This document shows, piece after piece, positions 33,901-36,900 of a DNA stretch of 64,000 bases. Numbering within the stretch: position 1 is the stretch's first letter; the number at the start of each line of letters is the position of its first letter. Made by a program: the position numbers. This DNA is from Escherichia coli (GTDB lineage Bacteria; Pseudomonadota; Gammaproteobacteria; Enterobacterales; Enterobacteriaceae), in assembly GCF_044647545.1 (NCBI RefSeq), contig NZ_CP172818.1; one strand, 5' to 3'.

Positions 33901-36900
33901 CATTCCTGCAAACGGCTGGTCAGCACAAAGTGATCGGTAATGAACGGCAAGGCTCCGGCGATTACGCCGATATCAAGACCAAATAACAATCCTGCGACCG
34001 CAGCAGCTACCGAAACAAACATATTCATACGCCGCGTATCCCGCAAAGAACGTGGCGTTAAAGCAGATTCCGTATTGATAGTAACCATTTTTTCCTGCCA
34101 GCAGAGAGTAAGACATAGTGAAAAAATACGTGAACAATTCACACAGGTGTCAGGTCGGAAATAGCATAAATATGGATTAAATTGCTGCGACATGTCGTTA
34201 TGTGATGGATATTACAATTTTCAAATTAAGTTGAATAATTGAGATTATTATTAACCAACTAATTTTAAAGCAGATAAAATTCATAAAGTTCATTAATTGA
34301 TAATTGATATGGATTATTTCATAACCATGATATGGATTATGATGATCTACAGGTATAAAAAACCCTGCCATGCGGCAGGGTCATAAAAGTAAGAAGAATG
34401 GATTAACGAGCCAGCCAACCGCCATCCACGGCAATGGTATAACCATTCACATAATCTGAAGCACTGGAGGCAAGAAACACTACCGGCCCCATCAGGTCAC
34501 TCGGCAGTCCCCAACGGCCAGCTGGAATGCGGTCGAGAATTTCCGCGCTACGTTGTTCATCTGCCCGTAGTTGTTGAGTATTGTTGGTTGCCATGTAACC
34601 CGGAGCTATCGCATTAACATTAATGTTGTGTTTAGCCCATTCATTCGCCATCAATCGTGTCACGCCCATCACGCCGCTTTTTGATGCGGTATAAGAAGGC
34701 ACACGGATCCCGCCCTGGAAGGAGAGCATTGACGCGATATTGATAATCTTGCCGCCATTGCCTTGCGCGATAAAGTGTTTCGCCGCTGCCTGAGACATGA
34801 AGAATACGCTCTTGATATTCAGGTTCATGACATCGTCCCAGTCTTTTTCGCTGAACTCGAGAGCATCTTCGCGCCGAATCAATCCGGCGTTATTCACCAG
34901 GATATCAATATGACCAAACTCAGCTACCGCGCGATCCAGCAGTGCTGGAATGCCATCAATCTTTCTCAGATCGGCGGTCAGGCTTAAAAAACGACGCCCC
35001 AGCGCCGTGACCTGCTTGATGGTTTCAGTCGGTTCAACGATGTTAATGCCAACAATGTCACAGCCCGCTTGCGCCAGCCCCAACGCCATCCCCTGGCCCA
35101 GTCCAGTATCACAACCAGTGACGACCGCAACTTTACCTTCGAGAGAAAATGCACTTAAAATCATAACAATACCTTATTCGTTTATGCCCACAACTAGCGC
35201 AAATCTTTAACGGCCACATGGTCCATATCATCAAAGACCTGGTTTTCACCGACCATGCCCCAGATAAAGGTATAAGCTTTGGTTCCGACACCGGAATGGA
35301 TCGACCAGCTCGGGGAGATCACCGCCTGCTCGTTATGCATCACAATATGACGCGTTTCTTGCGGCTGCCCCATCATGTGGAAAACGCAGGCGTCATCATC
35401 CATATTGAAATAGAAATAAACTTCCATCCGGCGCTCGTGGGTGTGACACGGCATGGTGTTCCACAAGTTACCCGGAGCCAGCTCCGTCATCCCCATACTC
35501 AATTGGCAGGTTTCCAGTACATCCGGGACAAAATATTTGTTAATCGTGCGACGGTTACTGGTGAGGTTATCGCCTAACGTGACTGGAGATACTTCGTCCG
35601 GTGTGACTTTTTTGGTGGGATACGTCGTATGCGCAGGTGCGCAATTGTAATAAAACTTCGCCGGAGTAGCGGTATCAATACTGGCAAAGACAACTTCTTT
35701 TGCGCCTTTACCAACATACAGGGCTTCGCGGTGACCGATTTCATAGCATTGACCATCGACGGTAATCGTACCGGCACCGCCAATATTGATAACACCTAAC
35801 TCGCGACGTTCCAGGAAATAGCTTACGCCGAGTTGTTTACCAACTTCCCCGCCAACGGAAACCGTTTTAGTTACCGGCATAATGCCGCCAACAATAATAC
35901 GGTCAATGTGGCTGTAAACCATGGTGTACTCATCGGCGACAAATACCTTTTCAACTAAAAATTCATTGCGCAGCCCCTGGGTATCCAGCGTTTTTGCATG
36001 CGCACTGTGGATGCTCTGTCTTACGTCCACATCAACCTCCGATAATCAGTGAAGCGTGAAAATAGAAAACGATAGTGAAACACTGTTTCGTTTTCTCTAT
36101 AAGGGGATGATATGCCCACGGGATAGGGTTTTCAATTAAAAATAAAACAATGTTTCATTTTTAAGTTAAGGACTGAAAAAAGTGCAGTGTCGATCACGAA
36201 TATGTCATGAGAATGGAAAAATCAGGGAGCCCTGAAAATGTATGTCGACTCGCCAGCCACCATTATTCAACAGATTGATGACGGCTGATATTTATCGGTA
36301 AGGAGGAAATGCAGAGCTATTCGTCACGTTCAATGGTCAATGCCACGCCCTGGCCCCCGCCGATACAAAGCGTAGCCAGTCCTTTGCGGGCATTACGTTT
36401 CACCATTTCATGAACCAGAGAAACGAGGATTCGGCAACCGGAAGCGCCTATTGGGTGACCGAGTGCGATCGCGCCACCATTGACATTGACCCGACGCTCA
36501 TCCCATTCAAGCATCTTGCCAACCGAAAGCGCCTGTGCAGCAAACGCTTCATTAGCCTCGATAAGATCGACATCAGCCAACTGCCAGCCAACACGCTCCA
36601 GGCAACGGCGGGTCGCATACACCGGCGCAATTCCCATCAATGCCGGATCTACACCAACGCTGGCAAATGCGCGGATGCGGGCCAGCACGGGTAAATTCAA
36701 CGCTCGTGCTTTGGCTTCGCTCATCATCATTACTGCAGCTGCGCCATCGTTTATGGATGATGCATTACCCGCTGTCACAGAGCCGAGACTATCAAATGAA
36801 GGATTTAAACGGGCTAAGCCTTCTGCACTGGCGTCAGTGCGTGGCTGTTCATCGGTATCTACAACCAACGTCTGACCGTTACTTTGGGTCATTACCGGGA

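What the first reader, a model, noticed from the sequence alone, without database searches (positions are those of the whole stretch)
34165..34340. Three same-orientation copies of an ATAATCCATA-type motif upstream of araE
One copy (34170-34186) matches the AraC half-site araI1 at 13 of 17 positions; two more lie 23 bp apart at 34305-34340, next to the kduD terminator. This suggests an AraC activating site plus an upstream auxiliary or looping site, analogous to araO2/araI at araBAD.
Basis: inference. Interest (0 to 1): 0.3.

Follow-up and report, generated by a model that had tools for sequence, protein, structure and literature searches.

The report
Conserved AraC-like motif pair upstream of araE
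Two short copies of the sequence that the arabinose regulator AraC recognises lie about 140 and 160 bases upstream of the known control site of the E. coli arabinose transporter gene araE; they are kept in over twenty related genera, so they are probably an undescribed distant AraC docking site like araO2 of the araBAD operon.

Summary
TAATCCATAT occurs three times on the araE-sense (minus) strand, at 34170-34179, 34307-34316 and 34330-34339 (spacings 137 and 23 bp). About 0.18 exact copies are expected in the whole 64-kb window.

The downstream copy is the B-box of a canonical araI1-type half-site (14 of 17 to araBAD I1). It is followed at +21 bp by an I2-type half-site that overlaps a -35 hexamer, and preceded by a CRP site. 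This is the pBAD layout.

The upstream pair (U1, U2) is the new element. Among 76 araE loci with a recognisable I1, 52 keep RTCCATAT and RTCCATA exactly 23 bp apart, while their flanks have diverged. The pair stays with araE even where kduD is not the neighbour.

The pair lacks the TAGC A-box, as araO2 does. A matrix trained only on araBAD I1 and O2 sites ranks U1 4th and U2 90th of 127,968 window positions.

Unlike araO2, only 7-8 bp are conserved, the internal spacing is 23 rather than 21 bp, and the distance to I1 falls in two classes about 10 bp apart.

Best reading: distal AraC half-sites that loop to I1 or hold AraC at the promoter. This is inferred; AraC binding was not tested. No paper I could read describes the pair.

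The parts
34361..34382 (-). kduD intrinsic terminator (stem-loop followed by a T-run); upstream boundary of the araE control region
   Evidence: 9-pair stem, 6 G-C pairs, T-run; the T-run is conserved in the 57-sequence alignment
34331..34347 (-). U1: distal AraC-like half-site GATCATCATAATCCATA. Its conserved core, RTCCATAT, is at 34330-34337. The TCCATA starts 160 bp upstream of the I1 TCCATA, about -221 to -216 from the inferred transcription start
   Evidence: sequence; TCCATAT is at least 90% conserved over 57 sequences while flanks carry under 0.4 bit; rank 4 of 127,968 with an araBAD I1+O2 matrix
34308..34324 (-). U2: second distal AraC-like half-site TTATGAAATAATCCATA. Its conserved core, RTCCATA, is at 34308-34314. 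It lies 23 bp downstream of U1 and 137 bp upstream of the I1 TCCATA, about -198 to -193
   Evidence: (rank 90 of 127,968)
34217..34307 (-). A+T-rich spacer between U2 and the CRP site. Its sequence is poorly conserved and its length varies by about 9-11 bp between lineages
   Evidence: the mean majority-base fraction is 0.58 outside the conserved runs across 34190-34355
34201..34216 (-). CRP site TGTAATATCCATCACA (the + strand reads TGTGATGGATATTACA), centred about -93.5. Its spacer and right half hold a fourth same-orientation TCCATC (34204-34209), 33 bp upstream of the I1 B-box
   Evidence: sequence; TCCATCACA is at least 90% conserved
34171..34187 (-). araE I1 half-site CAGCAATTTAATCCATA (14 of 17 to araBAD I1)
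   Evidence: rank 1 of 127,968 with the araBAD-trained matrix
34150..34166 (-). araE I2 half-site TGCTATTTCCGACCTGA (10 of 17 to araBAD I2, with an identical ACCTGA), overlapping the -35
34123..34153 (-). Inferred core promoter: -35 CTGACA (34148-34153) and -10-like TATTTT (34123-34128; TAYTTT in other genera). The start is inferred near 34114-34116 by register with pBAD
   Evidence: inferred from the sequence and from alignment with the K-12 pBAD sequence; CTGAC and the TAYTTT block are conserved. The simple promoter scan found no minus-strand site here
32670..34088 (-). araE coding sequence (472 aa, ATG at 34086-34088)
   Evidence: K-12 annotation: arabinose:H(+) symporter

Best explanation
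U1 and U2 are low-information AraC half-sites that carry only the B-box. They serve as distal partners for the high-affinity I1 half-site of the araE promoter. Without arabinose, one subunit of an AraC dimer sits on I1 and the other reaches back to U2 or U1, closing a 137- or 160-bp loop over the CRP site. This keeps AraC on the promoter without engaging I2, so basal araE expression stays low and induction is fast. With arabinose, the dimer shifts to I1 plus I2 and, together with CRP at about -93.5, activates transcription, as at pBAD. Shown here: the motifs, their orientation, their deep conservation and the pBAD-like layout of CRP, I1, I2 and -35. Inferred: that AraC binds U1 and U2, that a loop forms, and what it does.
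For: (1) There are three exact same-strand copies of TAATCCATAT against 0.18 expected in the window. (2) In a 57-sequence alignment of 340 nt upstream of araE, seven runs of at least 5 columns are at least 90% conserved: the terminator T-run, U1 TCCATAT, U2 TCCAT, TCCATCACA in the CRP site, I1 TCCAT, CTGAC at the -35, and the ribosome-binding GGCAGG. Other columns average 0.58. (3) Of the 76 loci with a recognisable I1, 52 keep the pair exactly 23 bp apart. These include Escherichia, Salmonella, Citrobacter, Klebsiella, Raoultella, Enterobacter, Kosakonia, Lelliottia, Leclercia, Siccibacter and Phytobacter. A single U1 persists in Buttiauxella, Mangrovibacter, Cedecea and Kluyvera. (4) The pair stays with araE where kduD is not upstream (Phytobacter), and where the kduD-to-U1 distance differs. 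(5) The substitutions tolerated at U1 and U2 (A or G before TCCATA; final A to G) are the same ones seen at the orthologous I1 sites. (6) araO2 also lacks the TAGC box (GAAACCAATTGTCCATA). In a mutational scan of pBAD, the positions of araO2 that matter are its TCCATA (PMC11983282). (7) A matrix trained only on araBAD I1 and O2 from 7 genera ranks araE I1 1st, U1 4th and U2 90th of 127,968 positions. (8) The distance to I1 falls in two classes 9-11 bp apart, about one helical turn, with nothing in between. (9) AraC ChIP/qPCR was run on araE among six known targets in cells grown without arabinose, and only ydeN was singled out as needing arabinose. This fits AraC being held at araE before induction (PMC3738151).
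Against: No binding data for U1 or U2 were available. The A-box is absent at both sites (U1 has AAT-, U2 has nothing conserved), so their affinity must be well below that of I1. The true araO2 behaves differently: its whole 17-mer is conserved and its distance to I1 is fixed at 211-212 bp in 7 genera. U1 and U2 are 23 bp apart, not 21, so they cannot both lie on the same face as I1. At 10.5 bp per turn U2 is near-integral (13.05-13.24 or 12.10-12.29 turns) but U1 is not. At the 11.1 bp per turn I recall being reported in vivo for the ara loop, neither is. The strict 23-bp spacing argues that the pair works as a unit, which a simple one-half-site loop does not require. From memory, unverified: early fusion studies (Kolodrubetz and Schleif 1981) and Schleif's reviews describe no AraC repression or looping at araE.
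Confidence: 0.5

Rival explanations
1. U1 and U2 together bind one AraC dimer as a self-contained auxiliary site, comparable to araO1 or the upstream araFGH site, without looping to I1. Such a site could raise the local AraC concentration, aid activation through contacts with CRP or the RNA polymerase alpha subunit, or have little effect.
For: The 23-bp spacing is invariant in 52 loci while the distance to I1 changes by 9-11 bp, which suggests the two copies act as a unit. They are direct repeats in the same orientation, as AraC dimers prefer. K-12 araFGH carries two separated AraC-like sites about 119 bp apart, CAGCAGATTAATCCATA and GAAATTAATTCTCCATA, so multiple AraC sites at a transport promoter have a precedent.
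Against: Known AraC dimer sites have half-sites 21 bp apart (I1-I2). A 23-bp spacing adds about 70 degrees of twist. Two B-box-only half-sites would give a weak site. There is no divergent promoter here for such a site to control.
Confidence: 0.2
2. The pair is the binding site of a different protein, such as another AraC/XylS-family sugar regulator or a nucleoid protein, that happens to recognise RTCCATAT repeats.
For: Only 7-8 bp are conserved and the AraC A-box is missing. The 23-bp spacing is atypical for AraC. The pair sits in an A+T-rich tract typical of nucleoid-protein targets.
Against: The conserved core is identical to the AraC B-box of I1 in the same promoter and of araO2, down to the flanking R and T. 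It has the same orientation as I1. I could not match it, from memory only, to the consensus of any other E. coli regulator I considered (DnaA, Fur, IHF, NarL, RcsB, OmpR, MalT). Nucleoid proteins do not impose invariant hexamers.
Confidence: 0.15
3. The motifs have no protein-binding role. They reflect a small ORF, an RNA, a promoter element or the kduD 3' end, or are a chance repeat.
For: A 57-codon ORF (34198-34371, minus strand) spans both copies. A weak + strand promoter-like match (TTGATA, 16 bp, CATGAT) overlaps them.
Against: The ORF reads the two copies in different frames (N-P-Y and I-H-I), yet all six bases are invariant in both. The flanks and the spacing to the rest of the region are not conserved. 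TTGATA and CATGAT are not conserved. There is no Rfam match. The pair persists without kduD upstream. Chance is excluded.
Confidence: 0.05

Closest known systems
araO2, the distal AraC half-site of the araBAD-araC region
   Same: A B-box-only half-site (GAAACCAATTGTCCATAT, with no TAGC). It has the same orientation as I1 and lies more than 100 bp upstream of an I1-I2 activator site, with a CRP site in between. Its core, GTCCATAT, is identical to U1 in about half of the genera. Its function depends on TCCATA (PMC11983282).
   Different: O2 is a single copy; its whole 17-mer is conserved; it sits at a fixed 211-212 bp from I1; and it lies in the araC leader. The araE element has two copies 23 bp apart, only 7-8 bp conserved, distances of 137-139 and 160-162 bp (or about 10 bp less), and no divergent gene.
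araI (I1-I2) of pBAD
   Same: The downstream copy belongs to a site of identical design: YAGC-N7-RTCCATA, a 4-bp gap, then an I2 half-site ending in CCTGA that overlaps the -35, with CRP about 37 bp upstream.
   Different: None of substance. This is the araE activator site, which to my recollection was footprinted by Stoner and Schleif in 1983. That paper was not available, so this is unverified.
Upstream AraC sites of araFGH
   Same: An arabinose transport promoter with more than one separated AraC-type site. One of them, CAGCAGATTAATCCATA, is nearly identical to araE I1.
   Different: At araFGH the sites are inverted relative to the gene, and the distal one has a full A-box. The araE distal sites are in the direct orientation and have only the B-box.

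Membership tests
AraC 17-bp half-site (TAGC-N7-TCCATA) | B-box TCCATA or a close variant | tested here: met
   Exact in I1, U1 and U2, and invariant across 47-50 distinct orthologous sequences.
AraC 17-bp half-site (TAGC-N7-TCCATA) | A-box (Y)AGC 7 bp upstream of the B-box | tested here: not met
   Met for I1 (A, G and C at 98-100%). Not met for U1 (GATC in this window; AAT- in the consensus) or U2 (TTAT; nothing conserved). araO2 also fails this feature (GAAA).
AraC 17-bp half-site (TAGC-N7-TCCATA) | Direct-repeat partner half-site 21 bp away | tested here: not met
   I1-I2 are 21 bp apart. U1-U2 are 23 bp apart in all 52 loci that have the pair. Nothing is conserved 21 bp from either U site.
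AraC 17-bp half-site (TAGC-N7-TCCATA) | Bound by AraC protein | not testable with these tools
   The only indirect evidence is an AraC ChIP/qPCR amplicon at araE I1 and leader, assayed without arabinose (PMC3738151). It cannot resolve U1 and U2.
araO2-type distal looping operator | Same orientation as I1, upstream, with the CRP site inside the would-be loop | tested here: met
araO2-type distal looping operator | Distance to I1 conserved, or changing only by whole helical turns | tested here: inconclusive
   O2-I1 is 211-212 bp in 7 genera. U2-I1 is 137-139 bp (44 loci) or 127-129 bp (8 loci), classes 9-11 bp apart with nothing between. U2 is near-integral only at 10.5 bp per turn, and U1 is not.
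araO2-type distal looping operator | Conservation of the full half-site | tested here: not met
   O2 is conserved as GAAACnAnTTGTCCATAT. U1 and U2 are conserved only as RTCCATAT and RTCCATA.
araO2-type distal looping operator | AraC-dependent repression without arabinose that is lost when the site is mutated or moved half a turn | not testable with these tools
   Requires reporter fusions.

The most novel reading that the evidence does not exclude
araE has its own AraC DNA loop, closed on either of two alternative distal half-sites 23 bp apart. This would be a second looping promoter in the arabinose regulon, unnoticed in a forty-year-old model system, conserved throughout Enterobacteriaceae, and setting the basal transporter level that governs all-or-none induction.
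Probability: 0.35. Interest if true: 0.55.

Novelty: new member of a known kind. Interest (0 to 1): 0.4.

Why it matters
AraE sets how much arabinose leaks into uninduced cells, and so it sets the threshold and the cell-to-cell heterogeneity of arabinose induction, including every pBAD expression system. If AraC loops at araE, or is parked there by the distal sites, the textbook view that looping is peculiar to araBAD would need amending. Models of the arabinose switch would gain a new parameter. Strain engineers who replace only the proximal araE promoter would be leaving AraC sites behind, as in the engineered genome seen. The 23-bp pair would also be a natural test case for how much half-site spacing the flexible AraC dimer tolerates.

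Tried and rejected
Literature. Nine full-text searches found no paper that describes sites upstream of the araE CRP site. One search was wasted, because 'anywhere' matching hit unrelated words. The key papers are not held: Stoner and Schleif 1983; Johnson and Schleif 1995; Carra and Schleif 1993; Stringer et al. 2014; Gallegos et al. 1997; Schleif 2010. Prior description therefore cannot be excluded.

Rejected readings. A coding ORF over the pair is rejected: the two copies are read in different frames and the flanks are not conserved. A + strand promoter over the pair is rejected: its hexamers are not conserved. A known RNA family is rejected: there are no Rfam hits. The kduD 3' end is rejected: the pair persists without kduD. 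From memory I compared the motif with the DnaA box (TTATCCACA), the Fur box, IHF, the NarL heptamer, RcsB, OmpR and MalT, and none fits the invariant TCCATAT. This comparison was not computed.

Controls that gave nothing. The araJ upstream region was scanned as a further control and has no TCCATA-type site. A matrix trained on O2 alone gave uninformative ranks because of its fixed GAAAC half.

Other copies in the window. Three further exact copies of TAATCCATAT(CA) looked like a possible genome-wide motif. The copy upstream of lysR is part of a different conserved block. The other two are inside genes and were not pursued.

Full report
**Where we are.** The window is Escherichia coli. The 314-bp kduD-araE spacer is 100% identical to strain FDAARGOS_497 and is present in 5,423 of 5,426 complete genomes. 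araE lies on the minus strand, with its ATG at 34086-34088 and its stop at 32670, and encodes 472 aa. The 507-aa ORF listed is an upstream extension of it. kduD (34403-35164, minus strand) ends in an intrinsic terminator at 34361-34382. The finding therefore sits in the araE control region and must be read on the minus strand.

**Checking the observation.** The repeat finder returns three 100%-identical 10-mers, ATATGGATTA on the + strand, at 34170-34179, 34307-34316 and 34330-34339. Their spacings are 137 and 23 bp. The upstream two extend to an exact 13-mer. On the araE strand they read TAATCCATAT. Six exact copies occur in the window against 0.18 expected, and no shuffle out of 100 reached six. 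The 17-mer is 34171-34187, CAGCAATTTAATCCATA, which matches araBAD I1 (read from K-12) at 14 of 17 positions.

**The downstream copy is the canonical activator site.**
- Twenty-one bp downstream of its TCCATA lies TGCTATTTCCGACCTGA (34150-34166). This shares 10 of 17 positions with araBAD I2, including the whole ACCTGA, and overlaps a -35 hexamer, CTGACA.
- A -10-like TATTTT follows at 34123-34128. It is TAYTTT in other genera, like the TACTGT of pBAD.
- Upstream is TGTAATATCCATCACA (34201-34216), a CRP-type site.
- Placing the site in register with pBAD puts the transcription start near 34114-34116, I1 at -72 to -56, I2 at -51 to -35 and CRP at about -93.5. This is inference, and it reproduces the pBAD layout.
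- All three motifs are therefore upstream of the promoter and not in the leader.

**Comparative evidence for the upstream pair.** A scan of one genome per species with AraE returned 80 loci across Enterobacterales.
- I anchored each locus on its I1 site (YAGC-N7-RTCCATA) and recovered I1 in 76 loci.
- In 52 of them, RTCCATAT (U1) and RTCCATA (U2) lie exactly 23 bp apart, in the same orientation as I1.
- The pair sits at -160 to -162 and -137 to -139 in 44 loci: Escherichia, Salmonella, Citrobacter, Enterobacter, Kosakonia, Lelliottia, Leclercia, Siccibacter, Pseudescherichia and others.
- It sits at -150 to -152 and -127 to -129 in 8 loci: Klebsiella, Raoultella, one Kluyvera and Phytobacter.
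- Buttiauxella, Mangrovibacter, Cedecea and most Kluyvera keep only U1, at -150 to -154.
- Erwinia, Mixta, Rosenbergiella, Franconibacter and Pluralibacter have I1 but no U site.
- In a 57-sequence alignment of the 340 nt upstream of araE, seven runs of at least five columns are at least 90% conserved: the terminator T-run, TCCATAT (U1), TCCAT (U2), TCCATCACA (CRP site), TCCAT (I1), CTGAC (-35) and GGCAGG (ribosome-binding site). Elsewhere the majority base averages 0.58.
- The flanks of U1 and U2 carry under 0.4 bit per position, while TCCATA is invariant in 47-50 distinct sequences.
- The pair follows araE where kduD is not the upstream gene (Phytobacter). The single U1 does the same in Buttiauxella, Mangrovibacter and Cedecea. 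Where the kduD-to-U1 distance differs (Salmonella arizonae, Klebsiella indica, Superficieibacter), the U-to-I1 distance is unchanged.
- This is a genuine, selected element of the araE regulatory region.

**Which protein binds it.**
- The conserved core is exactly the AraC B-box, including the flanking purine and the trailing T. It is the same as in araE I1 (RTCCATAT) and araO2 (GTCCATAT).
- The variants tolerated at U1 and U2 (A or G before TCCATA; TCCATG) are those seen at the orthologous I1 sites.
- A position weight matrix trained only on araBAD I1 and O2 from seven genera ranks araE I1 first, U1 fourth and U2 ninetieth of 127,968 positions in the window.
- The A-box (TAGC) is absent from both U sites. 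It is also absent from araO2 (GAAACCAATTGTCCATA). A recent mutational scan of pBAD found that the sensitive positions of araO2 are P43-P48, its TCCATA. The same paper states that AraC binds O2 about 10-fold better than I2 (PMC11983282).
- AraC is thus by far the best candidate, but no tool here can show binding.

**Positive control, and how the pair differs from araO2.** I fetched araC-araB spacers from Klebsiella-, Enterobacter-, Cronobacter-, Buttiauxella- and Mangrovibacter-type genomes and from a 90%-identical relative.
- araO2 is conserved over its whole length (GAAACnAnTTGTCCATAT) and sits 211-212 bp from I1 in all seven genera, amid otherwise diverged sequence.
- The araE pair differs in three ways: only 7-8 bp are conserved, there are two copies, and the distance to I1 takes two values about 10 bp apart.
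- That about-10-bp step, with no intermediate values, is what a helical-phase constraint would allow. It rests on only a few independent events.
- At 10.5 bp per turn U2 is near-integral (13.05-13.24 or 12.10-12.29 turns) and U1 is not. At the 11.1 bp per turn I recall being reported for the ara loop in vivo, neither is in phase.
- The invariant 23-bp spacing, rather than the 21 bp of every known AraC dimer site, suggests the pair works as a unit. That favours the rival model of a self-contained auxiliary site, or of alternative loop anchors.

**Mechanism proposed.** The best-supported model, at confidence about 0.5, is an araO2-like arrangement.
- Apo-AraC bridges I1 and U2 or U1. This keeps AraC resident at araE without filling I2 and encloses the CRP site.
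- Arabinose switches the dimer to I1 plus I2 and activates transcription together with CRP.
- This fits the report that AraC ChIP/qPCR was done on araE among known targets in cells grown without arabinose, with only ydeN singled out as arabinose-dependent (PMC3738151).
- It also fits, from my memory, the 15-30 s induction of araE reported by Johnson and Schleif in 1995. That paper is not held, so this is unverified.
- Against it stands my recollection, also unverified, that classical studies saw no AraC repression at araE.

**Rivals.**
- One AraC dimer on U1 plus U2 without looping: 0.2.
- A different protein: 0.15.
- No protein-binding role: 0.05. This is rejected because the 57-codon ORF reads the two copies in different frames, the promoter-like hexamers are not conserved, there is no Rfam hit, and the pair is independent of kduD.

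**Novelty.** None of nine searches of the held library turned up a description of these sites. The K-12 RefSeq record annotates only coding sequences across this stretch. The primary araE promoter paper and the AraC ChIP-seq paper could not be read, so prior mention cannot be ruled out. I rate it a new member of a known kind: a distal AraC operator at a second ara promoter. It is of moderate interest to specialists and directly testable. K-12 carries the same pair. The 5' T of TCCATA is at 2,982,430 for U1, 2,982,407 for U2 and 2,982,270 for I1, on the minus strand.

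Noticed in passing
window 34201-34209 (minus strand), inside the CRP site 34201-34216: A fourth same-orientation AraC-B-box-like motif, TCCATC, lies in the spacer and right half of the CRP site, 33 bp upstream of the I1 B-box. 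The 9-mer TCCATCACA is at least 90% conserved in 57 sequences, although CRP spacers are usually free to vary. An AraC half-site overlapping CRP, as araO1 does at pBAD, is conceivable.
   Followed up: partly
window 9557-9568 (+), 30894-30905 (-), 39942-39953 (+): Three further exact copies of TAATCCATAT occur in the window, and all three extend to the 12-mer TAATCCATATCA shared with U1 and U2. About 0.18 copies of the 10-mer are expected by chance. The copy upstream of lysR is part of a block conserved in other genera as AAATGATATGG, probably lysR promoter or LysR-site sequence, and its ATTA end is not conserved. The other two lie inside ORFs (7900-10788 on the opposite strand; 39382-40074 on the same strand) and remain unexplained.
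   Followed up: partly
L093 1958-2185 (NZ_CP148133.1, E. coli FELIX_MS78): This 'complete genome' is an engineered K-12 derivative. An FRT scar and a synthetic constitutive promoter (TTGACA...TATAAT) replace the native araE CRP, I1, I2 and core promoter, while U1 and U2 and the kduD terminator are left in place.
   Followed up: yes
window 34225-34242 and 34283-34300 (+): An 18-nt direct repeat, ATTAAGTTGAATAATTGA and ATAAAGTTCATTAATTGA (83% identical, 58 bp apart), lies in the A+T-rich spacer between U2 and the CRP site. It is not obviously conserved in other genera.
   Followed up: no
L081 (K-12 araBAD region) and L087-L092, 53 bp upstream of the araBAD I1 B-box: A half-site-like CGGCAGAAAnGTCCACAT in the pBAD orientation is conserved in all seven genera, at exactly -53 from the I1 B-box, within the araO1 region.
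   Followed up: no
window 45785-45801 (-) and 43265-43281 (+): With the araBAD-trained AraC matrix, the second and third best hits in the window are GAGAAAAATTATTCATA and GAACCAATATACCCATA. Neither has an exact TCCATA, and both are probably chance.
   Followed up: no
L066 (Mixta sp. Marseille-Q2659), about 110-175 bp upstream of the araE I1 B-box: A tandem array of the 7-mer CAGTCCG (at least 9 copies) occupies the position where other genera have U1 and U2.
   Followed up: no
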